Source of the DNA: Macrostomum lignano
Taxonomy: Eukaryota
Direction of reading: 5' to 3'
DNA: 64,000 nt
Assembly: GCA_002269645.1 (NCBI GenBank)
Contig: NIVC01002848.1
Coordinates: 71,727-135,726 of the forward strand
Shown here: piece by piece, positions 4,930-64,000 of the stretch
Layout: every line of letters starts with the position of its first letter
Position numbering within the stretch: position 1 is the first letter of the stretch
Position numbers and translations under genes: made by a program
The notes under the pieces: model-generated
Told to the model about the DNA's origin: nothing
Databases searched by the model: none
What the model saw: only the letters and a program-made list of their open reading frames with translations

Positions 4930-7542
4930 ATGTCAATCAGAGGTGCAGGCGGCATTATTCTGATGGGTTTCGACCTTCGGGCTCCTTGTTAGGAAGCCTT
5001 CGGGCCTCAGGCCTCAGAAATGAATCAATTAGAGTCCTGGCCCCCCACTCCTGTCAGATGGTCAGCCCCATGGTAGCTTGATCGTGTGGCGAGCAGTCTA
5101 GGTCCTATAGCTAAGAGAGGGACAGCGAGAGACGAGCAGGGAGAATTTTGAAGGTAGAAATTAGCTAATCCGCAGACTAAAGCTAACTCGCTGCCACCAG
5201 CCCGTGCGTCCTGGCTCACCACACCGGGACTCTCGAAATCGGGCTTCCGACTAGAAGGGGCTTTGCGCTTACCTGCCAACTAGTGTCTTTTTGCTGTCAA
5301 TCTCGAAGTCATAGCCGATGATAAGGGACACTGCTGGGACTAGATCGCATTGGCCATGCAGGTACAGAGGGGACTTGTGCAGGGGATTCTTGCAGTGGCG
5401 AGACTATGGGGTAGCTACATGTACTATTACATTGCTAAATACGAAGATATGTACTTTTGGCCTTCAACGCGCCAACTAGCCTCTCATAGCGCTGATGATA
5501 GACTAACTCGAACTTCAGAGACCGCATGATTCATTACCCGAGCCGCTTGGCTAACCTAGAGTGCACAAAGTACATCTCTGGCGCCGATTCTGCACTTCTG
5601 GCAGTTTTGCTCACTGATTTGGTAGATTGATCGACTGAGAACCGCCTTGCCATTGGTCCACTGTGACCGGCGCCTACTAGCTTAGCTACTCATCTGAGCC
5701 ATCGGCGAACAAAGAAATAAAACCGATAAAAATAACTGTTAGATTTAACCTTCTCCTTAGATCACTTCGCACTTCAGATTGAATTGGAGTTTCAGACTAC
5801 TAGTAGTATTATTAAGTGATTTCTGCCTCAGTAACAGCACTACTGAACAAAATGAGCAAAAGTGTGCGCCTAATTCAGCTACTGAAACAGGGGACAGATA
5901 GGGGATCACCCAATCAAGCAAGTCTAGGTAGCCTCTCACCCAACCAATCAGAAACTCAACAGCCGGAGACCAGGAAATCCACAATGACCAAATCGGCTTG
6001 ATGCTTCGCAGCTGTAGACTCGGGATGATGCTGACACAATCTTCGCTGATAGCTAGCAGGTGATGATCTTCGCTTGATGTTCGCTGCTGACGACCGGGGG
6101 ACTCGTCCTTGATGATGATGGGGGGAAGTCGCAATCCGGGGATCAAGAAACGACGGTCGCGCTCCGGGAACCAGAAGTTGCGTGCTGGACCCGAGCAAGA
6201 GTAAGATGCGTCCGAGCGGGCCAAAAACTCCGGTTTAAATAGCCGCCAACTGGACCGCAGTTTGTTATAACGGAACACGTCGATTCTGATTGGCTGAGTC
6301 GTTTTGTTAAAATGAGCGCCGAATTTTCTGATTGGCTAAGCTTGTTGCTACCCAGAATCACGTGACCAAGAGATCCTATCAGTTCCCACAGGGTCGTAAA
6401 AAGATGACAGGTGCGGCCATAAATCACTCAAAATCGCAACAAAATGATTTATGACTTTTCGCGTAGGATTGACAGAAATTAATGAAAAAATATACATTAG
6501 AAAGCTCTTATTAAATAGAAAGTGAAGATAATGAAGAGAAATTGCTAATCACTAATCCCAAAGTACTTTTAGGGGTAAAACGCATAGCTGTCAAAGCTGT
6601 CACACGCTCGAGTGAATCCGAACAATAGGCTCTGACCTCATAAATCTTGATGGCCTGTCAAAATGATGAGAAAAAAGCTACCGCCCGCATCCTCTCAGAC
6701 CATCTGGCGCCCGTCTCAACACTGAGTGAGGCGCAGGTGGCCGTCAGACCAACTTCGGAAGCGATGATTTACGACCCAAAAAGCTACGCCTATGTTATTA
6801 TGACTACTAGTATGGCCAGACATTATATCTAGTATAGATTCTATGACAATTTGCAGAAAAAGGATAAAAATGCCCATCGCCCACTGTTAGTAGGCTAGTA
6901 AGTTTAGAGCCCATGTGCTAGCGCGGGATTTGGGAAAAAGTGCGTCCTCATCAATTCTGGCGTTGGTTTGTCTCGGAATTGCTTCAGTCCATTCTGCTTC
7001 TGCCCCACGCGATGCTCTGGAAGGTAGGCGCGCTACCGAAACGTTTTTTTAACCTAATTATACTTTTGAATAGTTGAAGATCGAAATTCAGTCAAATAAA
7101 ACCTGTAACTTTATGCACTTACTTTCCGTTAGTGAACTAAGCGAGGCCACTCAAGGCTTGGATTGGGCTCCCATTGAACCATGACGAGACACTTGTTGGA
7201 AGTGAAAAGCTGTTCGATGCAGATGAGACGTCTTCTCTTCACAGGGCTAGTAACAGCAAGCGAGGCCGGTCCAGTTCCGGCAACGTGTTCCGATGGGGCA
7301 AGCGAGACTACGGCAACGTGTTCCGATGGGGCAAGCGAGACTACGGTAACGTGTTCCGATGGGGCAAGCGAGACTACGGCAACGTGTTCCGATGGGGCAA
7401 GCGAGACTACGGCAACGTGTTCCGATGGGGCAAGCGAGACTACGGTAACGTGTTCCGATGGGGCAAGCGAGACTACGGCAACGTGTTCCGATGGGGCAAG
7501 CGAGACTACGGCAACGTGTTCCGATGGGGAAAGCGAAGCTGA
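4930..7542 (+). pseudogene. GNVFRWamide neuropeptide precursor, disrupted by a solo LTR
   Basis: Joining 4930-4960 to 6958-7023 gives the signal peptide MSIRGAGGIILALVCLGIASVHSASAPRDALE. A phase-1 GT-AG intron (7024-7141) joins in frame to exon 7142-7542, which encodes 1x SSSGNVFRW-GKR and 7x DYGNVFRW-GKR (amidation Gly plus dibasic cleavage site). Confidence 0.9.
4961..6953 (-). mobile_element. Solo LTR (1993 bp), same family, diverged copy 2, inserted in a coding exon
   Basis: Termini TGATG...gcgtcctCATCA shared with copy 1; 4-bp TSD ATTC (4957-4960 and 6954-6957); colinear similarity with copy 1 over most of its length. Confidence 0.9.
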
Positions 7543-42778: not shown

Positions 42779-45700
42779 ATGCTAGGCTTAGATTTTGTCG
42801 ATTTTGTGCAGAAATGGCAGATTTCAAATTACGTAAGCGTTGAAGATTTCGCGGACAAGTTTAATTCGCTGTTCAGCACCCTACTGCTGATCCTATGCGC
42901 GCTGATTATCTCCGCTAAGCAGTACGTCATGCAAGCCCTCAGCTGCAACTGTCCCAAAACTAATGCCGGAAAAACTATTGAGTACGTTGAGAACTTCTGC
43001 TGGGTCACCGGGACTTACGCGATTGGCGAGCACGAGGAACTGCCAGTAAAGGAAGCCGGGTGGAAGCTGTTTGAGTCCAGGCGGATCAGTGAGAAGTTTT
43101 TATGAGTTTATTTTTGCGCGTTCCTGTTGAGAACATTAGCAGGAAAAACGAGAGAGCAAGCCTCGATAGAGCATGAGAAACGTGAGAGCAAGTCTCGATG
43201 GAGCATGAGAAACGTGAGAGCAAGTCTCGATAGAGCATGAGAAACGTGAGAGCAAGTCTCGATGGAGCATGAGAAACGTGAGAGCAAGTCTCGATGGAGC
43301 ATGAGAAACGTGAGAGCAAGTCTCGATGGAGCATGAGAAACGTGAGAGCAAGTCTCGATGGAGCATGAGAAACGTGAGAGCAAGTCTCGATGGAGCATGA
43401 GAAACGTGAGAGCAAGTCTCGATGGAGCATGAGAAACGTGAGAGCAAGTCTCGATAGAGCATGAGAAACATGAGAGAAAGTCTTGATAGAGCATGAGAAA
43501 CGTGAGAGCAAGTCTCGATAGAGCATGAGAAACATAAGAGAAAGTCTCGTTAGAGCATGAGAAATTGAGAGCGTACACAACCGCCCCGAGCAAGACACTG
43601 CTCAGATTCTACTCAGCAAGTATTTTAACAAAAATGTAACAAAGACACAATCACACGCCAAATAAAACATTTCAGATTACTACCAATGGGTGCCATTCAT
43701 GCTAGGCCTACAATGCGTCATGTTCTATCTGCCGCATCTAATCTGGGTTGCTATAGTAACAAATCGACTTGGTTCAGACGCGCAATACCTAGTAACGGAA
43801 GCCGCTTCGGTTGCTAAGGAAACCAGCATTGATCGCCGCGATCAGGTGTTGAATCACCTGGCTAATTCGGTGCTGCACATGCAGACCGTACACCGGGAGT
43901 ACAGCGATGGCCGATTGGCCAAATTCCGTAGCAAGCTGGTCCGCCTAGCCGGAGTCTGCTTTCCCAGCAAGCGACTTGGCACGGCGCTGGTGTTTGCCTA
44001 CCTGCTTGTCAAGCTGCTGTACCTGGCTAACTGCTTCGGTCAGCTGTTCCTAATGCACAGCTTCCTCGGCCTTGGCGGGCATCATTTGGCGGTTACTAAC
44101 CGTACCGCTGGAAGCTTGAATACCGCTGCCCGTCCCGGCTTGCTCGCCGAGATGCTGGGCTGGGACCTGGTGGCTGCCGTAGCCAGCGGGCGCGACTGGC
44201 ACTCTGGCATGTTCCCGAGGTCCACCCTGTGCCGAGTCAGACTGCTCAGCGTCGGTCACGAGGTTCTGGTGTGCCAGTGCGCACTGCCGGTCAATATGCT
44301 CAATGAAAAGGTAGAGCAAGGGGGATTGTGGAGTGGATGTTTTTACATTGAGCCCTTCTAGAGACCCTGACACTCTTTAGGAAGACCCTGACACTCTTCA
44401 GGAGACCCTGACACTCTTTAGGGAGACCCTGACACTCTTCTAGAGACCCTAACACTCTTCAGGAGACCCTGACACTCTTCAGGGGACCCTGACAGTCTTC
44501 AAAAGACCCTGACACCCTTCTAGAGACCCTGACACTCTTCAGGAGACCCTGACAGTCTTCAAGAGACCCTGACACCATTCTAGAGACCCTGACACTCTTT
44601 AGGAAGACCCTGACACTCTTTAGGGAGACCCTGACACTCTTCTAGAGACCCTGACACTCTTCAAGAGACCCTGACACTCTTCAGGAGACCCTGACAATCT
44701 TCTAGAGACCCTGACACTCTTCAGGAGACCCTGACACTCTTCAGGGGATCCTGACAGTCTTCAAGAGACCCTGACACCCTTCTAGAGACCCTGACACTCT
44801 TCAGGAGACCCTGACACTCTTCAGGAGACCCTGACACTCTTCAGGGGACCCTGACACTCTTCAGGAGACCCTGACACTCTTCAGGGGATCCTGACAGTCT
44901 TCAAGAGACCCTGACACTCTTCAGGAGACCCTGACACTCTTCAGGGGACCCTGACAGTCTTCAAGAGACCCTGACACTCTTAAAGAGACCCTGACACTCT
45001 TCAAGAGACCCTGACACCCTTCTAGAGACCCTGACACACTAGAGACCCTGACACACTAGACAGCCCGACACCCTAGAGACCCTGACACCCTAAAGACCCT
45101 GACACGCTTTTAGGGACCAAAAAAGACCTACAAGAGTTCCTGACACATTTCTGACTGAATTTGAGCATGAATAAGCACACAGCAACCCTGCAGAACTTAT
45201 ATAAATTAATCAATCAATTAAAACAAACTAAATTGTTATGGAACAAAATGGGCAAAAGCTAGTGTCTCAATAGATTATTAATACGTCACAGATCCAAGCC
45301 CGAAAGCATTTAAAACTGCACTACATCAGTTCAAAGCTTTAGTGCGAATGTTATTTTTAATTTAAAAACTGGATCCCCAGTTTTTTCTTTTGTTTAAGTC
45401 TGCTATCTCAGCAAACCACCAAATGAAAGCTGAAACTGTGCGAAATTATGCTGACTCGGCAAAATTTTAGCAAAGTTTTTTGCAAGTAGCTCGCTACCAA
45501 AATCTTTTTCATTTCTGCAACATCAGGGGTCTGATTACTGGTTTGCTATCCAGTTTTTGCGTCTGCTTTTGTCGCTCAAGAAAAGAATCCGAACATTTTT
45601 CTTTCCGTGGAGCTCGGCATTGACTTTGAATACAGCAGTGTGAAAGTTTTACATCCAAAACGGCAGAGGGAGAGACAGAGGGAGAGACAGAGGGAGAGAC

Positions 45701-48700
45701 AGAGGGAGAGACAGAGGGAGAGACAGAGGGAGAGACAGAGGGAGAGACAGAGGGAGAAGGAGAGGGAGACACAGAGGGAGAGACAGAGGGAGACACAGAG
45801 GGAGAGACGGAGGGAGAGACAGAGGGAGAGACAGAGGGAGAGACCGAGGGAGAGACAGAGGGAGAGACAGAGGGAGAGACAGAGGGAGAGACAGAGGGAG
45901 AGACAATGAGAGATAGAGGGAGAGACAGAGGGAGAGACAGAGGGAGAGACAATGAGAGATAGAGGGAGAGACAGAGGGAGAGACCGAGGGAGAGACAGAG
46001 GGAGAGACAGAGGGAGAGACAGAGGGAGAGACGGAGGAAGAGCCAGAGGGAGACACAGAGGGAGAGACAGAGGGAGACACAGAGGGAGAGACGGAGGGAG
46101 AGCCAGAGAAAGAGACAGAGGGAGAGAGAGAGGGAGAGACAGAGGGAGAGACAGTGAGACACGGAGGGAGAGACAGAGGGAGAGACAGAGGGAGAGACAG
46201 AGGGAGAGACAGAGGGAGAGACAGAGGGAGAGACAGGGAGAGACGGAGGGAGAAACAAAGGGAGAGGGAGAGACAGAGGGAGAGACAGAGGGAGAGACAG
46301 AGGGAGAGACAGAGGGAGAGACGGAGGGAGAGACAGAGGGAGAGACAGAGGGAGACACAGAGGGAGAGACGGAGGGAGAACCAGAGGGAGAGACAGAGGG
46401 AGAGACCGAGGGAGAGACAGAGGGAGAGACAGAGGGAGAGACAGAGGGAGAGACAGAGGGAGAGACCGAGGGAGAGACAGAGGGAGAGACAGAGGGAGAG
46501 ACAATGAGAGATAGAGGGAGAGACAGAAAGAGAGACAGAGGGAGAGACAGAGGGAGAGACAGAGGGAGAGACGGAGGAAGAGCCAGAGGGAGACACAGAG
46601 GGAGAGACAGAGGGAGACACAGAGGGAGAGACAGAGGGAGAGACAGAGGGAGAGACAATGAGAGATAGAGGGAGAGACAGAGGGAGAGACAGAGGGAGAG
46701 ACAGAGGGAGAGACAGAGGGAGAGACAGAGGGAGAGACGGAGGGAGAGACAGAGGGAGAGACGGAGGGAGAGCCAGAGGGAGAGACAGAGGGAGAGACAG
46801 AGGGAGAGACAATGAGAGATAGAGGGAGAGACAGAGGGAGAGACAGAGGGGGACAGAGGGAGAGACAGAGGGAGAGACGGAGGGAGAAACAGAGGGAGAG
46901 ACAGAGGGAGAGACCGAGGGAGAGACAGAGGGAGAGACAGAGGGAGAGACAATGAGAGATAGAGGGAGAGACAGAGGGAGAGACAGAGGGAGAGACAGAG
47001 GGAGAGACAGAGGGAGAGACGGAGGAAGAGCCAGAGGGAGAGACAGAGGGAGAGACAGAGGGAGAGACCGAGGGAGAGACAGAGGGAGAGACAGAGGGAG
47101 AGACAATGAGAGATAGAGGGAGAGACAGAGGGAGTGACAGAGGGAGAGACAGAGGGAGAGACAGAGGGAGAGACGGAGGAAGAGCCAGAGGGAGACACAG
47201 AGGGAGAGACAGAGGGAGACACAGAGGGAGAGACGGAGGGAGAGCCAGAGGAAGAGACAGAGGGAGAGACAGAGGGAGAGACAGAGGGAGAGACAGTGAG
47301 AGATAGAGGGAGAGACAGAGGGAGAGACAGAGGGAGAGACCGAGGGAGAGACAGAGGGAGAGACAGAGGGAGAGACAGGGAGAGACGGAGGGAGAAACAA
47401 AGGGAGAGGAAGAGACAGAGGGAGAGACAGAGGGAGAGACAGAGGGAGAGACAGAGGGAGAGACGGAGGGAGAGACGGAGGGAGAGACAGAGGGAGACAC
47501 AGAGGGAGAGACGGAGGGAGAACCAGAGGGAGAGACAGAGGGAGAGACAGTGAGAGAGACAGAGGGAGAGACAGTGAGAGACAGAGGGAGAGACAGAGGG
47601 AGACACAGAGGGAGAGACGGAGGGAGAGACAGAGGGAGAGACAGAGGGAGAGACAGAGGGAGAGACCGAGGGAGAGACAGAGGGAGAGACAGAGGGAGAC
47701 ACAGAGGGAGAGACGGAGGGAGAACCAGAGGGAGAGACAATGAGAGATAGAGGGAGAGACAGAGGGAGAGACAGAGGGGGACAGAGGGAGAGACAGAGGG
47801 AGAGACAGAGGGAGAGACAGAGGGAGAGACAGGGAGAGACGGAGGGAGACACAGAGGGAGAGACAGAGGGAGAGACAGAGGGAGAGACAGAGGGAGAGAC
47901 GGAGGGAGAGCCAGAGGGAGAGACAGAGGGAGAGACAGAGGGAGAGACGGAGGGAGAGCCAGAGGGAGAGACAGAGGGAGAGACAGAGGGAGAGACAGAG
48001 GGAGACACAGTGGGAGAGACGGAGGGAGAGACAGAGAGAGACAGAGGGAGAGACAGAGGGAGAGACAGAGGGAGAGACAGAGGGAGAGACAGAGGGAGAG
48101 ACAGAGGGAGAGACAGAGGGAGAGACCGAGGGAGAGACAGAGGGAGAGACAGAGGGAGAGACAATGAGAGATAAAGGGAGAGACAGAGGGAGAGACAGAG
48201 GGAGAGACAGAGGGAGAGACAGAGGGAGAGACGGAGGAAGAGCCAGAGGGAGACACAGAGGGAGAGACAGAGGGAGACACAGAGGGAGAGACGGAGGGAG
48301 AGCCAGAGGAAGAGACAGAGGGAGAGACAGAGGGAGAGACAGAGGGAGAGACAGTGAGAGATAGAGGGAGAGACAGAGGGAGAGACAGAGGGAGAGACAG
48401 AGGGAGAGACAGAGGGAGAGACAGAGGGAGAGACAGGGAGAGACGGAGGGAGACACAGAGGGAGAGACAGAGGGAGAGACAGAGGGAGAGACAGAGGGAG
48501 AGACGGAGGGAGAGCCAGAGGGAGAGACAGAGGGAGAGACAGAGGGAGAGACGGAGGGAGAGCCAGAGGGAGAGACAGAGGGAGAGACAGAGGGAGAGAC
48601 AGAGGGAGACACAGTGGGAGAGACGGAGGGAGAGACAGAGAGAGACAGAGGGAGAGACAGAGGGAGAGACAGAGGGAGAGACAGAGGGAGAGACAGAGGG

Positions 48701-51700
48701 AGAGACAGAGGGAGAGACAGAGGGAGACAGAGGGAGAGACAGAGGGAGAGACAGAGGGAGAGACAGAGAGAGACAGAGAGAGACAGAGGGAGAGACAGAG
48801 AGAGAGACAGGGAGAGACAGAGGGAGAGACAGAGGGAGAGACAGAGGGAGAGACAGAGAGAGACAGAGGGAGAGACAGAGGGAGAGACAGAGAGAGACAG
48901 AGGGAGAGACAGAGAGAGAGACAGGGAGAGACGGAGGGAGAGCCAGAGGGAGAGACAGAGGGAGAGACAGAGGGAGAGACGGAGGGAGAGCCAGAGGGAG
49001 AGACAGAGGGAGAGACAGAGAGAGAGACAGAGGGAGACACAGAGGGAGAGACAGAGGGAGAGCCAGAGGGAGAGACAGAGGGAGAGACAGAGGGAGAGAC
49101 AGAGGGAGACACAGTGGGAGAGACGGAGGGAGAGACAGAGAGAGACAGAGGGAGAGACAGAGGGAGAGACAGAGGGAGAGACAGAGGGAGAGACAGAGGG
49201 AGAGACAGAGGGAGAGACAGAGGGAGACAGAGGGAGAGACAGAGGGAGAGACAGAGGGAGAGACAGAGAGAGACAGAGAGAGACAGAGGGAGAGACAGAG
49301 AGAGAGACAGGGAGAGACAGAGGGAGAGACAGAGGGAGAGACAGAGGGAGAGACAGAGAGAGACAGAGGGAGAGACAGAGGGAGAGACAGAGAGAGACAG
49401 AGGGAGAGACAGAGAGAGAGACAGGGAGAGACGGAGGGAGAGCCAGAGGGAGAGACAGAGGGAGAGACAGAGGGAGAGACGGAGGGAGAGCCAGAGGGAG
49501 AGACAGAGGGAGAGACAGAGAGAGAGACAGAGGGAGACACAGAGGGAGAGACAGAGGGAGAGCCAGAGGGAGAGACAGAGGGAGAGACAGAGGGAGAGAC
49601 AGAGGGAGACACAGTGGGAGAGACGGAGGGAGAGACAGAGAGAGACAGAGGGAGAGACAGAGGGAGAGACAGAGGGAGAGACAGAGGGAGAGACAGAGGG
49701 AGAGACAGAGGGAGAGACAGAGAGAGACAGAGGGAGAGACAGAGGGAGAGACAGAGGGAGAGACAGAGAGAGAGACAGGGAGAGACAGAGGGAGAGACAG
49801 AGGGAGAGACAGAGGGAGAGACAGAGAGAGAGACAGAGGGAGAGACAGAGGGAGAGACAGAGAGAGACAGAGGGAGAGACAGAGAGAGAGACAGGGAGAG
49901 ACGGAGGGAGAGCCAGAGGGAGAGACAGAGGGAGAGACAGAGGGAGAGACCTAGGGAGAGCCAGAGGGAGAGACAGAGGGAGAGACAGAGGGAGAGACAG
50001 AGGGAGACACAGAGGGAGAGACAGAGGGAGAGACAGAGGGAGAGACAGAGGGAGAGACGGAGGGAGAGACAGAGGGAGAGACCGAGGGAGAGACAGAGGG
50101 AGAGACAGAGGGAGAGACAGAGGGAGAGACAGAGGGAGAGACGGAGGGAGAGCCAGAGGGAGAAACAAAGGGAGAGGGAGAGACGGAGGGAGAGCCAGAG
50201 GGAGAGACCGAGGGAGAGACAGAGGGAGAGACAGAGGGAGAGACAGAGGGAGAGACGGATGGAGAGCCAGGCGGAGAGACAGAGGGAGAGACAGAGGGAG
50301 AGGGAGAGACGGAGGGAGAGCCAGAGGGAGAGACAGAGGGAGAGACAGAGGGAGAGACGGAGGGAGAGCCAGAGGGAGAGACAGAGGGAGAGACAGAGGG
50401 AGAGACAGAGGGAGAGACAGAGAGAGACAGAGGGAGAGACAGAGGGAGAGACAGAGGGAGAGACAGAGAGAGACAGAGGGAGAGACAGAGGGAGAGACAG
50501 AGGGAGAGACAGAGAGAGACAGAGAGAGACAGAGGGAGAGACAGAGAGAGAGACAGGGAGAGACAGAGGGAGAGACAGAGGGAGAGACAGAGGGAGAGAC
50601 AGAGAGAGAGACAGAGGGAGAGACAGAGGGAGAGACAGAGAGAGACAGAGGGAGAGACAGAGGGAGAGACAGAGGGAGAGACAGAGAGAGACAGAGGGAG
50701 AGACAGAGGGAGAGACAGAGGGAGAGACAGAGGGAGAGACAGAGGGAGAGACAGAGGGAGAGACAGAGGGAGAGACAGAGGGAGAGACAGAGGGAGAGAC
50801 GGAGGGAGAGCCAGAGGGAGAAACAAAGGGAGAGGAGAGACGGAGGGAGAGCAGAGGGAGAGACAGAGGGAGAGACAGAGGGAGAGACAGAGGGAGAGAC
50901 AGAGGGAGAGACGGAGGGAGAGCCAGAGGGAGAAACAAAGGGAGAGGAGAGACGGAGGGAGAGCAGAGGGAGAGACAGAGGGAGAGACAGAGGGAGAGAC
51001 AGAGGGAGAGACAGAGGGAGAGACGGATGGAGAGCCAGAGGGAGAGACAGAGGGAGAGACAGAGAGAGACAGAGGGAGAGACAGAGAGAGACAGAGAGAG
51101 ACAGAGGGAGAGACAGAGAGAGAGACAGGGAGAGACAGAGGGAGAGACAGAGGGAGAGACCGAGGGAGAGACAGAGGGAGAGACAGAGGGAGAGACAGAG
51201 GGAGAGACAGAGGGAGAGACGGAGGGAGAGCCAGAGGGAGAAACAAAGGGAGAGGGAGAGACGGAGGGAGAGCCAGAGGGAGAGACAGAGGGAGAGACAG
51301 AGGGAGAGACAGAGGGAGAGACAGAGGGAGAGACGGAGGGAGAGCCAGAGGGAGAAACAAAGGGAGAGGGAGAGACGGAGGGAGAGCCAGAGGGAGAGAC
51401 CGAGGGAGAGACAGAGGGAGAGACAGTGGGAGAGACAGAGGGAGAGACGGATGGAGAGCCAGAGGGAGAGACAGAGGGAGAGACAGAGAGAGACAGAGGG
51501 AGAGACAGAGAGAGACAGAGAGAGACAGAGGGAGAGACAGAGAGAGAGACAGGGAGAGACAGAGGGAGAGACAGAGGGAGAGACAGAGGGAGAGACAGAG
51601 GGAGAGACAGAGGGAGAGACAGAGGGAGAGACAGGCGGAGAGACAGAGGGAGAGACAGGGAGAGACAATGAGAGATAGAGGGAGAGACAGAGTGAGAGAC

Positions 51701-52485
51701 AGGCAGAGAGACAGAGGGAGAGACAGAGGGAGAGAGGGGGATCGAGACAGAGGGAGAGACAGAGGGAGAGACAGAGGGGGACAGAGGGAGAAACAGAGGG
51801 AGAGAGAGGGAGAGACAGAGGGAGAAACAAAGGGAGAGGGAGAGACAGAGGGAGAGACAGAGGGAGAGACAGAGGGGGACAGAGGGAGAGACAGAGGGAG
51901 AGACAGAGGGAGAGACAGAGGGAGTGACAGAGGGAGAGACAGAGGGAGACAGAGTGAGTTTCAGAATAGCAGAAGCAGGTAGCGGGAATCATGCTCAGAG
52001 GCCATCAACCCCAAGCCAGATGACAAACGCCGCCCCCGCAGGTGTACATGATGCTGTGGCTGTGGACCCTGGCGGCAGCCTTCATCACGGTGCTCTCCGT
52101 GCCAGTCTGGTTTGCCAGAGTCGGCCTCCGAGTCAGCAGAATTCGCTTCATCCGACGCCAGCTGCTGCTGTCCCAGACTCCAATAATGACTGGCCATGAA
52201 TATCGGTCAGCCAGCACTGGCAAACCCAGATTAGTCGCAGATAAGTGCAACTTTGCCAAGATGGCCAAAGACATGGTGGACAACCTGCTGCACGCTGACG
52301 GCGTGTTCCTGTTCAAGATGATGCAGCTGAATGCAGGCGACGTCGCCGCGGGCCAAGTGCTGCGTCGGCTGTACGAGAACTGGAAGCATCAGCTGGCCGA
52401 CACGCCGGCAGAGAAGTTGACGATAAGTGAGCCTGGCCAGGAGAAACCGCCGAAAACTTCGGAGAAGAACTTAGTAGTAGTGTGA
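42779..52485 (+). CDS. inx: Innexin (gap-junction protein), 3 exons, 462 aa
   Basis: Exons 42779-43088, 43676-44310 and 52042-52485 splice in frame; signatures VEDFADKFN, KQYV, N|YYQWVPF, FPRSTLC and LPVNMLNEK|VYMMLWLW. Confidence 0.95.
43150..43570. repeat. 32-bp minisatellite in innexin intron 1
   Basis: gagcatgagaaacgtgagagcaagtctcgatg repeated. Confidence 0.95.
44360..45110. repeat. ~21-bp minisatellite in innexin intron 2
   Basis: gagaccctgacactcttcagg repeated. Confidence 0.93.
45662..51955. repeat. 6.3-kb purine-rich satellite, 12-bp core gagggagagaca, in innexin intron 2
   Basis: Direct reading; recurring variant blocks indicate higher-order duplication. Confidence 0.97.
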
Positions 52486-55604: not shown

Positions 55605-56580
55605 TCATGAATACTTGGTGTACTGCAGAGGCTCAATCTCTTGAGCTAAAAACTCGTGAACTTTTGGCCAGATCTCGTTTGAGTAGCTGCCAGTAAATTG
55701 CACTAGAAGGCCGCGCTGTCTGAAGTATTCTAGCACGGGTTCAGTCAATTCTTTGTAGTGCGACAGGCGCTCCAGTACCACAGACTCTTTGTCATCTTCG
55801 CGTTGGATTAACGGCTCGCCAGTGACGTCATCGAAGCCCTTTGGATAGAGGGGGGGGTGAGTGTACATTGGGGTTTGGCGTAGAGGATAGATAGAGAGCA
55901 AGTGTACATTGGGGTTTGGCGTAGAGGATAGAGGGGCGAGTGTACATTGGGGTGTGGCATAGAGGATAGAGGGGCGAGTGTACATTGGGTGTGGCATAGA
56001 GGATAGAGGGGCGAGTGTACATTGGGTGTGGCATAGAGGATAGAGGGGCGAGTGTACATTGGGTGTGGCATAGAGGATAGAGGGGCGAGTGTACATTGGG
56101 GTTTCACAGAGATTCAGAGAATAGAGAAGCAAGTGCGAATAGGGTTTATAAACAGTGTTTATAGTATCTGTGGTTTTGGCCCAAGATAGAGCCTGGGTGA
56201 ACATTAGGTTTAAAATAAGTTAGTAATGAGAACAAGTACATATTCTGGAATTCTGGAACATTTTCAAGCATATATATAACGCACCTCTCGCACAGGCTTA
56301 TTAAACTCTGTGTGATAAGTCCTCCCACTTCCCGGATGAATCCACCGGCCTTTAATACGTTCAACAATGACGTTAAACGGCACGTCAAGATTCATAACTC
56401 GATCAATTTGCACGCGTGAGCAAAGACTTTCAGCCTGCGGCAGTGTGCGCGGAAAGCCGTCTAATAGTAAGTGAGAATTTGCGGCAGCTTTGGATTGCTC
56501 TTCAATGATGAGCTCAAGTACCAGACTGTCTGGCACTAGTTCGCCGCGGTTCATGTACTTGCCAACTTCTAGACCGAGCT
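55605..56580 (-). CDS. AK3: Adenylate kinase, AK3-like (mitochondrial GTP:AMP phosphotransferase), last two exons
   Basis: Exon 56580-56285 (GELVPD, LLDGFPRTLPQAE, RWIHPGSGRTYH) splices in phase 0 to exon 55838-55605 (GFDDVTGEPLIQREDDK...EIWPKV). The P-loop exon is not in the window. Confidence 0.88.
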
Positions 56581-58809
56581 CTTGAAATGAGATTGGCGCG
56601 AAAGAAAATAATAAATATGGATACTATTCGGAGCGTGGACGTGTAATTATGTATGTACATGTAAGATACTAAACAAGAGATATTAGATAAGATAAAAAAG
56701 ATCTCATAGAGGGGCGAGTGTACATTAAGGTTTGGCGCAGAGGATAGAGGGGATAGAGGGACGAGTGTACTGTAGTGTGAGCATCTTTTGCGATAGCCTT
56801 GTATTCTATTAGTTGGGTTTTGCATTATTGTTATTGAATTATTATTTTGCTTTAGTTAGTCATACGTTTTTGGTGTACTTTTTCCTTGTTAGTTAGAATC
56901 AATTTTGCGTAAACAGGTTAGAGTTAGACGCCATTTGTGACTCAGCGGAGGGTTAAGTTGTCTGCGAACCCCAGCTTTGCGCGGTCAGCCAATCAGAACC
57001 GGCCTGGACCCTGGCACGCGGCAAGTTTCAATTCTACCCGGCGCCGCGGGCACAGTGCAATTCGGCTTAAGCAAGCGGCCGGCCAGACGACCACCACCCG
57101 GCTTGAGGGGGGTTTTGAGGGGTTGTGACTCTGACTATATATGAAAGTGTGTTTGGCAATCAGATCTCGCCTTCCTTTCCGCCTTCTCTTTCCCCGGTTT
57201 TGTCTTGTCCAGTTCCCGGCCGGTGGCCCGATTTCTCCTCTCTTGTTGGTTCGCGCTTTGAGGCGCCTGAATTCATCACCCCCGGTCCATATTTTTGTTC
57301 CCGCCCAACCGCTTTAGTCTTGTGGTGTAACGCCTACGGCAAATTCCTGTCTGAAGTCGTCGCTATCAAGCGCGGTTAGATAGAGACTGTCGGATCTGAT
57401 CAAGTACGCGGCCTCGATCCCGAGGGCCTCAGTGTTACACTGAAGGGCAGTGCCGATAGAATTTAGTCGGTACTCCGTTGAACGGTCGGTTCGGCAGGGC
57501 TCTCGTTTGAGTGTAGGTTCTGGCTTAGGCCAGGGGTTAGGAGTCTTTCTCCGTGGTCCTGTGTTCGGTTCTTCTCCTTCTTCTTCAAGCTGAGATCCGC
57601 TTGTCAGTGCGTAAAATAATCATTATTATTAATCGTTACTATTCGTTATCATCAGTCTAATTATCTGCGCCGCGAATTGCTTGAATCCTGTAGCTTGAAT
57701 AATCAAATTAAATCGTCTAACCAATTATCAGTTTGTATCATATAGGATTATCACTCTCTAAATCTTTCGGTTTGTGTTCCCTCGTGTTCTTTATTTTCTT
57801 GTACTGTACCTGCGGCTATTGGAGAAGACTGGTAGGACTCGCCGACCGGCGATAGGCGATTAGGATTAATAGCTTTAAAATCTCTGACGCTCCAAGTAGG
57901 TTTGTCTAGGGCCTAATTAATTGCTCACCGTGCATGCTATTTATCTAATTGCCTATTTATCACAGTACATTGGGGTTTGGCGTAGAGGATAGAGGGGATG
58001 GAGGGGCGAGTGTACATTGGGGTTTGGCGTAGAGGATAGAGGGGATGGAGGGGCGAGTGTACATTGGGGTTTGGCGTAGAGGATAGAGGAGGGGATAAAG
58101 GGACGAGTGTACATTGGGGTTTGGCGTAGAGGATAGAGGGGATAGAGGGGCGAGTGGACATTGGGGTTTGGCGTAGAGGATAGAGGGGATAGAGGGACGA
58201 GTGTACATTGGGGTTTGTCGTAGAGGATAGAGGGGATAGAAGGACGAGTGTACATTGGGGTTTGGCGTAGAGGATAGAGGGGATAGAGGGGCGAGTGTAC
58301 ATTGGGGTTTGGCGTAGAGGATAGAGGAGGGGATAAAGGGGCGAGTGTACATTGGGGTTTGGCGTAGAGGATAGAGGAGGGGATAAAGGGACGAGTGTAC
58401 ATTGGGGTTTGGCGTAGAGGATAGAGGGGATAGAGGGGCGAGTGTACATTGGGGTTTGGCGTAGAGGATAGAGGAGGGGATAAAGGGACGAGTGTACATT
58501 GGGGTTTGGCGTAGAGGATAGAGGGGATGGAGGGGCGAGCGTACATTGGGGTTTGGCGTAGAGGATAGAGGGGATAGAGGGACGAGTGTACATTGGGGTT
58601 TGGCGTAGAGGATAGAGGGGATAGAGGGGCGAGCGTACATTGGGGTTTGGCGTAGAGGATAGAGGGGATAGAGGGACGAGTGTACATTGGGGTTTGGCGC
58701 AGAGGATAGAGGGGATAGAGGGGCGAGTGTACATTGGGGTTTGGCGCAGAGGATAGAGGGGATAGAGGGGCGAGTGTACATTGGGGGTTGGCGTAGACGA
58801 TAGAGGGTC
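55850..58809. repeat. G-rich minisatellite (gagtgtacattggggtttggcgtagaggatagagggg core) in two AK3 introns
   Basis: Blocks at 55850-56100, 56705-56770 and 57965-58809. Confidence 0.9.
56771..57964 (+). mobile_element. Solo LTR (1194 bp) of a second family, inserted in the minisatellite
   Basis: TGT...ACA termini; 4-bp TSD GTAC (56767-56770 and 57965-57968); the repeat unit resumes exactly after it; CCAAT (~56988) and TATA-like ctatatatg (~57135). Confidence 0.85.
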
Positions 58810-59387
58810 AGTAGTAGTATGTTATAAGGGGCTGCGCCACACTTAATTGCTCGGGCGCATTGCGCGCCAGCTCGCTGGATGACTCAGCCCCTTATAACAT
58901 ACTACTACTACCAGGAGGTCATGGATTCAAGTGGGTGTGTGATATGTAAATATACATATATCTGTGAGTGAGGGTGTTGAGGGTGAGGGCATGTGGGGGG
59001 CATTGGCCTGTGGAATATTTCACCGAACACAGATTTTCCGGAATTTTTATACTTTTAAAAAGGGGGGGTGCCCTCGCCCTCATGCCCTCACTCATTTTGA
59101 AAATCACTAAAAATAAGTGAAAAATGACTAAAAACAGGTGAAAATGGTCTGAAAACAGCGATTTTTTGTGATTTTCTAATTTTTTTAAAAAGTGCAATTT
59201 TCACGATTCCAGCTCTAAAACCATGAGAAAAGTTGGATTCACGGGTCAATTTAATGCAATTTCAGGTATATACAATATGAAAGTGTCATCTAATTTGACG
59301 ATAGTAAATTTTATATATATAAAATGGCCTTCAGTAAACCATTATTTCTAGGAAATGCTTTAGATATTCAGTCAGGTATAGACATAA

Positions 59388-60158
59388 TTGACAATTAGGC
59401 ATAATCGCCATATAAAAATGAATGATAAAAATGAACACATCTATCCTGTGGTTGAGCTGCATGAAGCAGATTTGAGGGAGCGGGACTATTTCAATCAGAG
59501 AAAGGGTGAAATCAAAGGCAGTATTGAATGCATTACGAAAGATCTTACAATTTATAGCAAAAAGGTAAAAAAGTACAAACGACAAAGTAGCAGGATAAAT
59601 TGGATCAACATTGTGACAGGAAATGTAAGTCTCTTGGCTGCTACAGGAATTGGCATAGCAACATCGATACTGACATTGAATCCCTTAGTTATTGGAGTAG
59701 TAATCGGGGCAATGAGTGGTTTTGAAGCTGTAAAATCCACGTCGTTGTTTGCAACTGTGAAAATTCATTGCCAAAAGCAGAAGGCAAAATACATTGTTCT
59801 CAGAGATCTGGCCAATAAATACAGAGAGAGATTATATATTTACTCCCAAAAAGCAGTTGATGATTATAGATTAACTCTTGAAGAGGTTCAAGCAGCTACT
59901 GCAATTTATTCAGAATACAGAGAGAAAAGAGATCAATTGTTAGACGCCGGTGTTGCGCCTGAAGAAGTTAACCATTCGGAAGTCGTTGATAAAATTCTCA
60001 AAGAGAGTAGACTTGGTCATTCAGCGAAGGAAAAAATTAAAAAGGAACTGCTGGAGAAAGATCTGAGAGAAAAATTGGGTCTAGCCGATAAGCCAAAAGA
60101 GTACTCGGCAACACTCAATCTTCAATCAAATGCTCCAACTGCACCCCCCTATGCTTGA
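59388..60158 (+). CDS. Polinton-associated protein with a central hydrophobic hairpin, function unknown
   Basis: Intact 256-aa ORF (the true start may be MNDKNEHIYP); IYP...KKYKR...two hydrophobic segments...KAVDD pattern that I recall from ORFs next to animal Maverick polB genes. Confidence 0.65.
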   Translation: MTIRHNRHIKMNDKNEHIYPVVELHEADLRERDYFNQRKGEIKGSIECITKDLTIYSKKVKKYKRQSSRINWINIVTGNVSLLAATGIGIATSILTLNPLVIGVVIGAMSGFEAVKSTSLFATVKIHCQKQKAKYIVLRDLANKYRERLYIYSQKAVDDYRLTLEEVQAATAIYSEYREKRDQLLDAGVAPEEVNHSEVVDKILKESRLGHSAKEKIKKELLEKDLREKLGLADKPKEYSATLNLQSNAPTAPPYA

Positions 60159-60182
60159 GTCTGTTTAATTTTTTTCTTAAAA

Positions 60183-63100
60183 ATGGAAAGGAAAATACCA
60201 GCGGCCTCTTATGAATATGATCTCGACACCGTTGAAGAAATTCACGGTTTAATCTCCCCAATTCTTTCTAAACATTTGATGGCTAGAGATTCAATAAAAT
60301 ACAGAATTTCCTTTGTCGCAGAATTTTATAAAGGAACTACCGACAGTTGGATTGAGTTCCAATATCATTCAAAGTATCGAACTTTGTTAAATCTGCTTCA
60401 AGTTGAAGATAGTATTGAAAGTACAATAAGGGATGTTCTGGATGAATTTGATGAATGGAAGGATAGTTTTAATGAAAGGGGATCGGGATATTATTTTGTT
60501 AAGTTAGTAAAGATTGTGTTGAAAGTTGTTGGCATTAATCAGTTGAAAGGAGGAACTTATATTTCAATTCCAATTAAATCAAACGCATTAGTAAATGTCA
60601 AGAACACTAAAGACAATAGGTGCTTTCTCTGGTCTATTTTAGCAAAGCTCCATCCTGTGAAGGAACATAGATATAGAGTTGGTAAGTATACACAGTATAT
60701 AAATGAAATAAACTTAGGAGACGTTAAATTTCCAGTGGACATTCGAGATATCTCTGACATTGAAAAGTTGAACAGTCTTCATATAAATGTGTTTGGATTA
60801 AGGGATATAAATACTAAAGAGTCAATATATTCTATTCGTCTGACAGAAGATTACGACAACCCCAATGTTATTGATTTACTACTTGTCAAAAATCATTATT
60901 GTTTAATAACAGACTTGTGTTTATTCCTCACGTCCCAAAATTACAACAGGGTTTTTCTTTGTCGAAAGTGTCTTCAAGTCAAATACTCCCAGGATGCACT
61001 GGATAATCATAAAGCAATCTGTAATGACTTCAAAGTGTCAATTGAAGTTCCAAAGATTGATAAGAGGATATTAAAGTTTAAAAACTACCACATGAGTGTA
61101 AGAAAACCATTTGTGTTTTATGCAATATTAGATTATGTAACGATGGATGATAAATCACTAGAGCTATCACAATGGACACTTTTTACTAGTTCCGACTATG
61201 AGGACATTATAAAATCAAATATTATTTCAAATACTACAGTGGAATCATTCGTTGAAACCGTAATAAAAAAGTTTGAGCATATAAAAAATGAAATGGATAG
61301 ATATAAACATCCAAGATTAAGTGATGTCGAAGAGACTGATTACAAAGCGGCAGAACAATGTTTTCTCTGCTCAAGGCCATTTGTAGATAGTAAAAAAATT
61401 CGAGAGCATAATCACTACAATGGTAAATATCGTGGCGCAGCATGTCAATCATGTAATACCAAAGAGGGCAAGGCGAATCAAACAGTACCGTTGTTTCTCC
61501 TGAATGAATCTGGAAAAGATCTAAACTATTTGATAGCTCCATTAACACGAATGAATAATAAAAAATATATATTGGATTTTATTTCTAAAACATCGGAAGA
61601 CCATGTTGCAATTAAGTTGGGGAATTATACCAGTGGTGTTGTGTTTTTAGATGGATCTAGGTTTTTGGAACCACCATTTACACTCTCTAAAGAAGAAATA
61701 AAATATTTGCCACCCAGTGATACAACAGCAGTAATTAGAAAGATTTACTCATTTGTCAATGCTTTTGAGAAGTTTCGATCAACATTTTTGAAATATTTCA
61801 AGATAGATCCTGCGTATTGCTTTTCCCTTTCTGGATTATCGTGGGCATGTGGGTTGAAATATACTAATGTGGAATTGGAATTACTTGGTGATAAAGAAAT
61901 GATATCCATGGTAGAAAGTGGTATTCGCGGCGGTTTCTCTGGAGTTCTTGGAGATCGATATAAAAAAATGAATAACAAGTATTTAGAAAGTTATGACAGC
62001 AATTCTGAATCGTCGTACATGCTATACTTGGACAAGAATAATTTATATGGTGAAGCAATGATGAAAAATCTACCTGTGGGAGATTTCAAGTTTGAAAATG
62101 ATCTAGAGTATCACAAGAATATTCCTAATGGCAGGGGTTGTTTTCTTGAAGTTGACCTTCAATATACAGAGGAATGTAAGAAAGCTACAAGTAAATATCC
62201 ACTGGCTCCTGAGAAACGAACAACTAGGTTTGAGGATTTATCTGACATACAGAAGCAATACCTCGAAGTCGAAAAGAAAAAGTTTGTTCAATCCAAGTTG
62301 AATGTTGACATTTTACAACAAGGAGAAATATGTTTTACATCACAGACTACTTGAGTTTTATGAGAAGATGGGCATGCGAGTTGCGAGAGTTTATAGAATT
62401 CTTTCATTCAAAGAGTCAAACTGGTTGAGTAAATACATCGAATTTAATACCAGGCGGAGAATGGAAGCAAAAACTAAATTTGAGAAAGACCTGTGGAAAC
62501 TACTAAACAACTCATTCTACGGTAAAACAATCGAAAATGTAAAGAATAGGTCGAACTTTCATCTTGTAGCTGAAGAAAAAACTGCAAGGCGTTATTTTTC
62601 CAAACCAAATTTCAAAGATTTCATTATGTTTAGTGAGGATGCGGTTGGTATCCAAATGTACAAAAAGACAATTGCGTGTGACAAGCCAATTTATTTAGGA
62701 ATGGCTATTCTGGATTATGCAAAAATGTTCATGTACGATTGCTATTACAATGTTATTGAGAAGAATTGGAACAGCTGTCAATTGCACTATTCTGATTGTG
62801 ATTCGCTGATATTCTCAGTGATTACTCAGGATGTTTATGAGGATCTTGAAAAAATTAAAGAACACTTAGACACATCGGATTATCCAAGAGAGCATCCACT
62901 ATACTCCGAGACGAACAAGAAAGTCATTGGAAAGTTGAAAGATGAAATGAATGGCTCAATAATTTCCGAAGCTGTATTCCTGCGGTCAAAGGAGTATGCT
63001 TTCACTACAGTTTCAGGGGAGTGTGTTACGATCAAGGGGGTTTGATAAAAGCAGTACAAATATAAAGTTTGAAACATTTAAAAACATACTATGACAGATT

Positions 63101-63251
63101 ACAAAGATATTCAAAGAGGTAGAGTAAGTATGATGTATCTGAAAAAATAAAAATATATATTCGTGAGATTATGAAACAAACAATGAGTCCGTTAGATGAT
63201 AAAAGATATTATTTGGATCCTATCAGATCTATTCCTCATCAGCCAATGTAA
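60183..63251 (+). pseudogene. polB: Protein-primed family B DNA polymerase (pPolB), frameshifted in this sequence
   Basis: RCFLWSILA; endonuclease VII-like REHNHYNGKYRGAACQSCN; polymerase motifs YLDKNNLYG, KLLNNSFYGKT, YSDCDS, KVIGKLKDE and SPLDDKRY. One extra base at ~62301 and further indels after ~63037. Confidence 0.92.
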
Positions 63252-63272: not shown

Positions 63273-64000
63273 TTATTTTTTTACACATAAAAACAGAACA
63301 TTTTTAGTTTCTTGCTGTTTACCATCTATCCTACGCCTATATCTATCCTTATAATACTTACAATAGTCATTGTGATTCTTGAAGAAATCTGTTATGTATT
63401 GTTGTTGGAATTCACGTTTCTCACGTTGGGCTAGAGTCCTATAGTATTCACTCTCTGTTGGCGGCAGTGTAAATTTCTCTAACAAGCATAAATGTTTTTT
63501 CCTCAGTTTCTAAAAATTCATAATTCTCTTCAAAGAAGTGAGCAAACCAATTACAATTCTGTATGAATTCATTAGTGTTTTCAATTACATTTTGAGATAG
63601 ATATATTTTCACCCTTTGTTTGCTTGAAAATTTCTAGTAGGTGTTTCATCTCAGAAACTTATATTTAGTCTTAAACTCCTCACTTTTCAAATATGATCGG
63701 CCTTGCTAAGTGTGTTTCTCAGGCATCAATGATTTCGTTATCTGTTGTATATTTGCACGGGTAATTAATATTGATAATTTCCTCTTCTCTGCATCTCCAA
63801 TATTTTGTCTAAAGTCAGGCTTGTTATTACATTCGACTATTAGGGTTGCGTGTTAAAACGACATTACACTGGCTTGAATATAAATTTCTAGGCTTGGATA
63901 ACCCCACACAGTTAGTAATTTTATTGATGCATTGTTCAAGACACCACTTACTTCTTGACTGATAACTAACCTCTTTTTATTAATTTGTGCTAGGGGCTTG
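63273..64000 (-). pseudogene. D5-like SF3 helicase, C-terminal half, multiply frameshifted
   Basis: Manual translation across indels: LAQINKKRLVISQEVSGVLNNASIKLLT / GVIQA / RNLYSSQ / HATLIVECNNKPDF...DAEKRK / NWFAHFFEENYEF / EKREF...KNVLFLCVKK. This matches the Walker B, motif B' (ARxLY), sensor-1 (CNxxP) and Arg-finger layout of D5-like helicases. Confidence 0.7.

What the first reader, a model, noticed from the sequence alone, without database searches (positions are those of the whole stretch)
61080..61800. pPolB appears to have lost 3'-5' proofreading while the polymerase motifs are kept
Seen versus the Polinton consensus as I recall it: Exo I PFVIYADFE reads PFVFYAILD; Exo II HNLSGYD reads LNESGKD; the KGVFPYEY...YLKxD block holding Exo III is replaced by a much shorter in-frame segment (FLEPPFTLSKEEIKYLPPSDTTAVIRKIYSFVNAFEKFR). 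Motifs A and B are conserved, and motif C is DCD instead of DTD. These changes lie in an uninterrupted 723-codon frame, so they look like lineage-level loss rather than post-insertion decay. Inference: an error-prone replicase.
Basis: partly seen in the sequence, partly recalled or inferred. Interest (0 to 1): 0.7.

Follow-up and report, generated by a model that had tools for sequence, protein, structure and literature searches.

The report
Polinton polymerase that lost proofreading
A young family of virus-like elements in this animal genome carries a DNA polymerase that lacks key proofreading residues in every copy read, next to a primase-helicase gene that likely compensates, while a recombinant sister family with intact proofreading motifs lacks that gene.

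Summary
The Exo loss is real and family-wide. The Exo I Asp is Ile (Asp in 88 of 89 relatives). About 75 residues holding KGxYPY and Exo III are deleted. Only the Exo II Asp and an Exo I Glu-to-Asp remain. All 32 other copies covering Exo I lack its Asp; all 28 spanning copies have the deletion. The nuclease fold is still predicted, and the polymerase is under purifying selection (pN/pS 0.16).

Two corrections. The 723-codon frame stops after motif A; motifs B and C lie in another frame, a break that four sequencing runs do not show. 'Error-prone' is untested, and two indirect checks show no mutator signal.

New context: the ~18-kb Polinton also encodes an AEP-PriCT2-D5-SF3 primase-helicase facing pPolB. 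Exo-intact relatives examined lack it. A recombinant family here keeps the structural genes (98-99% identical), has an exo-intact pPolB and no helicase. This parallels the exonuclease-for-helicase trade described for mavirus and PLVs, here in an animal Polinton. New variant of a known kind.

The parts
58810..59390 (+). Left terminal inverted repeat of the Polinton, about 580 bp, starting AGTAGT
   Evidence: matches both ends of ~18.2-kb sibling elements; inner limit approximate
58810..58909 (.). Terminal 100-nt hairpin with a 25-bp stem
   Evidence: -31.6 kcal/mol, z -8.8; both arms in 26 of 30 TIRs, loop in the same orientation in 30 of 30; not specific to the exo-dead family
59418..60158 (+). 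246-aa ORF of unknown function, shared with families 2 (35-40%) and 3 (98%)
60183..62354 (+). pPolB 5' frame (723 aa): terminal protein, vOTU, dead Exo with HNH insert, TPR1, motif A
60183..60540 (+). Terminal-protein (LF/PAD fold) domain; Ser101 in a G-S-G loop between helix 2 and strand 4 is the predicted priming residue
   Evidence: model 4-119 aligns to Pol eta little finger, Z 8.2, rmsd 3.6, 104 aligned; position rule from PMC11161782 section 6
60573..60923 (+). vOTU protease domain with D144, C147, H238 kept
   Evidence: Z 8.2, rmsd 3.2, 103 aligned to a viral OTU; columns
61119..61133 (+). Exo I, YAILD: first catalytic Asp replaced by Ile, Glu by Asp
   Evidence: model 308 starts at phi29 residue 5, so 315 falls at D12 if the strand is ungapped
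61347..61484 (+). HNH / endonuclease VII insert, conserved (12 of 13 conserved columns kept)
   Evidence: PF02945 E 1.8e-7
61500..61520 (+). Exo II, LNESGKD: Asn and Asp kept, His and Tyr lost
61662..61775 (+). Remnant across the ~75-residue deletion; Exo III Tyr and Asp positions are A516 and K520
   Evidence: alignment A4; helices 536-600 of the intact control model have no counterpart
62025..62051 (+). Polymerase motif A, YLDKNNLYG, catalytic Asp kept
62302..63045 (+). pPolB second frame: motif B (62497-62526), TPR2 region, motif C YSDCDS (62788-62805), KxY
63123..63251 (+). pPolB C-terminal piece in a third frame
   Evidence: matches sibling C-termini
63276..63993 (-). 3' part of the AEP-PriCT2-D5-SF3 primase-helicase gene, in pieces here; the rest lies beyond the contig end
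   Evidence: tblastn of P0123 residues 603-841; domains; contig ends with the window

Best explanation
This Polinton family encodes a protein-primed DNA polymerase whose Exo I Asp and Exo III block are lost in every copy read, so it is predicted not to proofread, and it likely relies on the primase-helicase encoded beside it to unwind DNA. Shown: loss of the residues, family-wide sharing, purifying selection on the polymerase, and the adjacent helicase gene, which is absent from the exo-intact relatives examined. Predicted by model: the nuclease fold persists. Inferred: no exonuclease activity; weakened strand displacement, as in phi29 metal-ligand mutants; rescue by the SF3 helicase; the Exo remnant kept as a scaffold for the template tunnel and HNH insert; initiation still primed by the terminal protein.
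For: Residue loss. Exo-only profile score 29 bits against 268-296 for 4 intact proteins. Exo I lacks Asp in 32 of 32 covered copies of 37 examined, Exo III remnant in 33 of 33; deletion in 28 of 28 spanning copies. Variants in 3 or more copies: pN/pS 0.16 polymerase, 0.15 vOTU, 0.37 Exo; singletons 0.75 and 1.29. 21 of the 26 other full-length copies share a contig with a helicase hit (matched by eye). No helicase in 3 family-2 elements walked, 6 family-3 contigs or 106 outside loci. Family 3 nests inside family 1 by its structural block (0.4-1.3% from young copies; old copies 1.4-3.1%) and has an exo-intact pPolB. phi29: metal-ligand mutants lose strand displacement (PMC6351526). Exo loss goes with helicase gain in mavirus and PLVs (PMC11161782 section 10).
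Against: No activity was measured. The pairing rests on one lineage, so it is one evolutionary event plus one reversal. Only 25 of the 106 outside loci are 10 kb or longer. The neighbours of the other exo-dead proteins (P0150, P0243) are unknown. OmPLV has a helicase with an intact Exo (PMC12721341), and some polintons carry D5-like genes whose Exo state was not stated in the passages read (PMC4405056). TPR2 is retained. Selection on the helicase gene is poorly measured (at most 6 variants per class in the 3+ group). Two acids (D317, D446) remain. The Exo/Pol ratio of pN/pS is similar in families 1 and 2 (2.3 vs 2.7).
Confidence: 0.55

Rival explanations
1. Replicase turnover in progress: the AEP-SF3 protein does most synthesis or priming, and pPolB is kept mainly for terminal-protein priming or is on its way out; Exo was simply the first part to go.
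For: The AEP domain shows a DxD and a following His motif (motif names recalled; Prim-Pol hit E 5e-3 and 5e-4, below cut-off). Two-replicase elements are read as transient replacement states in 10.64898/2026.07.28.741278 and 10.64898/2026.10.13.758929. Motifs A (DKN) and C (DCD) are unusual, and pN/pS in the polymerase is twice that of family 2 (0.16 vs 0.07).
Against: The polymerase is still strongly constrained (p 3e-11 against neutral). The loss looks old: P0150, about 41% identical, shares the Exo I change and loop deletion. The one recent swap went the other way, to an intact pPolB without AEP.
Confidence: 0.2
2. One reading: a stand-alone error-prone replicase; the helicase gene is incidental cargo.
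For: phi29 D12A/D66A misincorporates more (PMC6351526). TPR2 is kept. Helicases can sit with intact Exo elsewhere.
Against: No mutator signal in ts:tv or relative distance, though both are weak. The helicase was dropped together with the exo-dead pPolB in family 3.
Confidence: 0.15
3. The polymerase is dead and the family is copied in trans by families 2 or 3.
For: Most assembled copies are frameshifted: only 2 of 20 loci have a frame over 900 codons. Exo-intact families coexist in the genome.
Against: Breaks fall at different places in different copies. A 2,689-nt contig from another run spans Exo I to motif C with one gap against the window. Purifying selection on shared variants. All polymerase Asp residues are kept.
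Confidence: 0.05
4. The domain keeps some nuclease activity through D317, D446 and a relocated acid, or the HNH insert substitutes for it.
For: The fold is still predicted, two acids remain, the Exo remnant is under constraint (0.37) and the HNH is conserved.
Against: The first Exo I Asp and Exo III Tyr/Asp, all named as catalytic in phi29 (PMC4974454), are gone. The HNH is also present in exo-intact relatives, so it is not a replacement.
Confidence: 0.05

Closest known systems
Polinton/Maverick elements with pPolB1-type polymerase (TP-vOTU-Exo-palm)
   Same: TIRs starting AG, ~18 kb, 6-bp target duplication in some siblings, rve integrase, A32 ATPase, DJR capsid, same pPolB domain order. The pPolB1 label is my assignment and was not tested against that paper's sets.
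   Different: Exo motifs were reported as conserved across Polinton pPolBs of all taxon groups (10.1101/2023.08.22.554363, passages). Here they are lost, and an AEP-SF3 gene is added.
Mavirus-like virophages (pPolB with Exo remnant plus separate SF3 helicase gene)
   Same: Exo loss together with a stand-alone SF3 helicase gene and an rve integrase (PMC11161782; PMC13215967).
   Different: Mavirus pPolB lost most of the domain and the first motif C Asp. Here the fold, HNH insert and both Asp are kept, the helicase carries an AEP domain, and the pPolB nests among exo-intact Polinton proteins. An independent and less complete loss.
PLV/transpoviron pPolB-SF1 helicase fusions and AEP-SF3 replicases
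   Same: Polymerase without exonuclease paired with a helicase; AEP-SF3 architecture.
   Different: No fusion here; both replicase genes sit side by side in an animal element.
phi29 DNA polymerase Exo mutants (D12A/D66A)
   Same: Top structural match (Z 12.2, rmsd 4.3, 248 aligned); the same Exo I Asp position is lost.
   Different: Engineered mutants of a phage enzyme; here a natural loss with a large deletion.

Membership tests
Polinton/Maverick | Long TIRs starting AG, 15-20 kb | tested here: met
   571-591 bp arms; siblings of 18.2-18.7 kb. The window holds only the left end.
Polinton/Maverick | 6-bp target-site duplication | tested here: inconclusive
   Present in 3 of 6 sibling pairs with both ends found, of 7 examined (2 distinct insertions). 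The others have mismatched flanks, some swapped between contigs. Not testable for the window copy.
Polinton/Maverick | pPolB with TP, vOTU, Exo-fold and palm motifs A, B, C | tested here: met
Polinton/Maverick | Retroviral-type integrase | tested here: met
   PF00665 E 6e-10 in a sibling
Polinton/Maverick | [quoted passage not shown] | tested here: met
   PF04665 E 7e-6; PF21738 E 2e-13 in a sibling
Polinton/Maverick | Minor capsid protein and maturation protease | tested here: inconclusive
   272-aa and 146-aa ORFs have no Pfam or PHROG hit; I named them by size and position from recall
Active DEDD 3'-5' proofreading exonuclease | Exo I Asp | tested here: not met
   Ile315 against Asp in 88 of 89
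Active DEDD 3'-5' proofreading exonuclease | Exo I Glu | tested here: inconclusive
   Asp317 against Glu in 92 of 92; still an acid
Active DEDD 3'-5' proofreading exonuclease | Exo II Asp | tested here: met
   D446
Active DEDD 3'-5' proofreading exonuclease | Exo III Tyr and Asp | tested here: not met
   Deleted or replaced by A516 and K520
Active DEDD 3'-5' proofreading exonuclease | Measured exonuclease activity | not testable with these tools
   needs an assay
Mavirus-like virophage | pPolB that lost most of the Exo domain | tested here: not met
   model region 304-562 still aligns to DnaQ-like folds
Mavirus-like virophage | Separate SF3 helicase gene | tested here: met
   P0123: D5_N E 5e-12, PriCT_2 E 4e-11, DUF5906 weak; phrog_1156 E 3e-39
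Mavirus-like virophage | Virophage-type capsid protein | not tested
   no capsid tree was built

The most novel reading that the evidence does not exclude
An animal Polinton caught partway along the route that produced mavirus and PLV replicases: it gained a primase-helicase, lost proofreading and strand displacement from pPolB, and passes the two genes on as one module. A recombinant in the same genome that took an exo-intact pPolB shed the helicase. A second, unrelated pPolB (P0243) made nearly the same deletion, so the route is repeatable. The near-identical families 1 and 3 would be a natural matched pair for testing the proposed exonuclease-helicase trade-off.
Probability: 0.4. Interest if true: 0.78.

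Novelty: new variant of a known kind. Interest (0 to 1): 0.6.

Why it matters
Krupovic et al. 2024 (PMC11161782) proposed that exonuclease loss and helicase gain compensate each other, from end states in protist viruses. Polinton pPolBs were described as keeping their Exo motifs. This family shows an intermediate state in an animal element, with the fold kept and the catalytic residues gone. The same genome holds an exo-intact sister lineage and a very recent recombinant that differs mainly in the replication module and ends. That makes the hypothesis testable with purified proteins. It would also show whether a ~18-kb DNA virus can do without proofreading.

Tried and rejected
- Post-insertion decay or assembly artefact as the source of the Exo changes: rejected.
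- Separate exonuclease gene in the element: none found. An Exo-only profile over 2,769 frames hit only pPolB; no exonuclease family among the element ORFs. Several ORFs remain unnamed, so a divergent nuclease is not excluded. An Eco47II-like endonuclease ORF is present, also in family 2.
- Terminal hairpin as a mark of helicase-driven replication: first attractive, then rejected as specific, because exo-intact family 2 also has an inverted copy of its terminus 264-308 nt in. No flip-flop in 30 of 30 TIRs.
- Mutator signature: not seen; weak tests.
- Degenerate helicase (Walker A ends GKG): relatives have the same.
- Expression: no RNA holder listed. Runs guessed to be RNA cover the genes, and two of three lack the outer TIR. 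Not evidence.
- Sequence search of PDB: nothing significant. Foldseek on the window model: no E under 0.001. Atlas: only the family itself.
- Third protein search used a length window of 1979-5000 aa and was uninformative. Viral scan with P0280: no match.
- selection counts were redone against a single natural reference, which is the version quoted.
- Earlier scan findings: none returned.

Full report
Observation. The flagged stretch lies in a 723-aa frame, 60183-62354. Its best database match is a Macrostomum lignano protein at 93% (P0003); the rest are Polinton-type pPolBs. Against 119 relatives, Exo I has Ile where 88 of 89 have Asp and Asp where 92 of 92 have Glu. Exo II keeps Asn441 and Asp446 but loses the His and Tyr. 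The KGxYPY-to-Exo III block is gone, and anchoring on AFEKFR puts Ala516 and Lys520 at the Exo III Tyr and Asp. Conserved columns kept: vOTU 24 of 27, HNH 12 of 13, polymerase 46 of about 51 before the frame ends (31 columns past the break dropped), Exo 4 of 9 and 15 of 48; full-length relatives keep a median of 96-100%. An Exo-only profile scores the window protein 29 bits and four intact ones 268-296. phi29 needs D12, E14, D66, D169 and Y165 (PMC4974454, passages).

Correction. The frame ends after motif A. Motifs B and C are in 62302-63045 and the C-terminus in 63123-63251. Sibling copies break at other places, and contigs of 4 of 4 laid runs lack the window's breaks. They are assembly errors or private to this copy.

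Structure. The model of the 723-aa frame (mean pLDDT 76) matches phi29 polymerase best (Z 12.2, rmsd 4.3, 248 aligned), then viral OTU domains and the Y-family little finger, the published TP-vOTU-Exo order (PMC11161782, sections 6 and 10 read whole). The alignment starts at model 308 = phi29 5, which places Ile315 at D12 if the first strand has no gap. The same offset fits Pol epsilon, T7 and DnaQ (their residue numbers are recalled). A control model of intact P0013 (pLDDT 89; phi29 E 2.5e-17) has a run of helices at 536-600 with no counterpart in the window model. The fold persists; most of the active site does not.

Family-wide. The genome holds at least 27 matches spanning the whole 1.1-kb query at 90-100% (lower bound). 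Of 37 other copies examined, 32 cover Exo I and none has the Asp, 33 cover the Exo III remnant, and 21 of 21 covering motif C read DCD. 28 of 28 that span Exo II to motif A carry the deletion. Variants in three or more copies give pN/pS 0.16 for the polymerase, 0.15 vOTU, 0.37 Exo (Exo vs Pol p 0.046) and 0.44 TP; singletons are near neutral. Copies are not independent: some contigs repeat one insertion, and three stop variants fall in the shared class. So the polymerase was selected while the family spread, and the Exo remnant is still constrained, probably as scaffold.

The element. Siblings are 18.2-18.7 kb with ~580-bp TIRs and encode integrase, ATPase and DJR capsid. Facing pPolB is an 841-codon frame with weak Prim-Pol, PriCT-2, D5_N and SF3 helicase domains; its 3' part is window 63276-63993 on the minus strand. 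Its nearest relatives are only 25-33% identical, and the two viral loci found show no pPolB among the listed ORFs. 21 of the 26 other full-length copies share a contig with a helicase hit; the other five are cut short or internally deleted. No separate exonuclease was found.

Controls. Family 2 in the same genome has intact motifs wherever its 25 loci cover them, is sister to the exo-dead protein on both trees (SH-aLRT 96 with P0150, and 86; quick trees), and has no helicase in three elements walked. Family 3 shares about 8 kb of structural and integrase genes with family 1 at 98-99% but has another, exo-intact pPolB, other TIRs and no helicase. Its structural block nests inside family 1, so it arose by replacing the exo-dead pPolB and helicase together. 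Outside the genome, 42 of 43 loci with one frame over Exo I to motif A have all four acids, and none of 106 loci has a hit to my helicase profile, though only 25 are 10 kb or longer. Among 241 database homologues 219 have all four acids; most of the other 22 are fragments. Two stand out. P0150 (41% identical, partial) shares the Exo I change and loop deletion, so the loss is probably old. P0243 lacks Exo I and III with a similar deletion and keeps its polymerase motifs; it falls apart from the window protein across a starred branch, on a long branch.

Mechanism. Inferred: the TP domain (Ser101) primes, vOTU cleaves it off, and pPolB extends without proofreading. In phi29 the Exo domain forms the template tunnel with TPR2, and metal-ligand mutants lose strand displacement (PMC6351526, passages), so a helicase would be needed. 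This fits the published pattern for mavirus and PLVs. Against: the pairing is one lineage, OmPLV has helicase plus intact Exo (PMC12721341, passages), some polintons are known to carry D5-like genes (PMC4405056, passages), and two-replicase elements may be transient (10.64898/2026.10.13.758929 section 13; 10.64898/2026.07.28.741278, passages). Higher error rate is plausible but unseen: ts:tv 77:24 vs 124:75 and equal distances to an old copy.

Novelty. Exo loss in pPolBs, AEP-SF3 replicases, dual replicases and module swaps are each described in protist viruses and environmental contigs (also PMC13215967, passages). A large survey reported Exo motifs conserved in Polinton pPolBs of all groups (10.1101/2023.08.22.554363, passages). 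Five searches found no report of an exo-dead animal Polinton pPolB or of Polintons in this host. PMC10661337 was read in passages for D12A.

Verdict. Real and family-level; new variant of a known kind; interest 0.6. Loss of exonuclease activity about 0.9; helicase-assisted working polymerase 0.55.

Noticed in passing
G000 C781, C1449, C176, C4675, C2071, C4832 (L080, L081, L084, L098-L105): Family 3: recent recombinant with family-1 structural and integrase genes, a different exo-intact pPolB, 902-bp TIRs and no helicase.
   Followed up: yes
L021:664-7487 versus L025, L027, L033, L035: Family 1 exists in two arrangements; the block of the 246-aa ORF, pPolB and primase-helicase is inverted. The window has the arrangement with that ORF next to the TIR.
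   Followed up: partly
window 60160-60197; L021:1431-1465 and 6994-7028: pPolB and the primase-helicase both begin MERK and share a 35-nt start element at 80% identity; possibly shared regulation, possibly chance in AT-rich DNA.
   Followed up: partly
window 58810-58909: Terminal hairpin in each TIR; family 2 has a longer-range version, family 3 none; no flip-flop.
   Followed up: yes
P0243 / P0280 (database proteins): Second exo-dead pPolB with a similar deletion, apparently independent.
   Followed up: partly
L026:4207-5478, L022:7249-7647, L021:7847-8158, L025:7828-9252: Integrase frame with a PLA2-like N-terminal part, an Eco47II-like endonuclease, a RING-finger ORF and an F5/8-type C protein in the element.
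   Followed up: no
L023-L030 flanks: Left and right flanks of some copies match across different contigs, suggesting assembly chimeras or recombination between copies.
   Followed up: no
window 55605-56623: Adenylate kinase exons on the minus strand about 2 kb from the insertion, separated by a 47-bp tandem array at 57965-58807.
   Followed up: no
L078:3427-6936: A fourth, more distant exo-intact pPolB element in the same genome.
   Followed up: partly
window 1-58000: Many tandem arrays, including 6.3 kb of a 12-bp unit at 45664-51949; they explain most long ORFs there.
   Followed up: no
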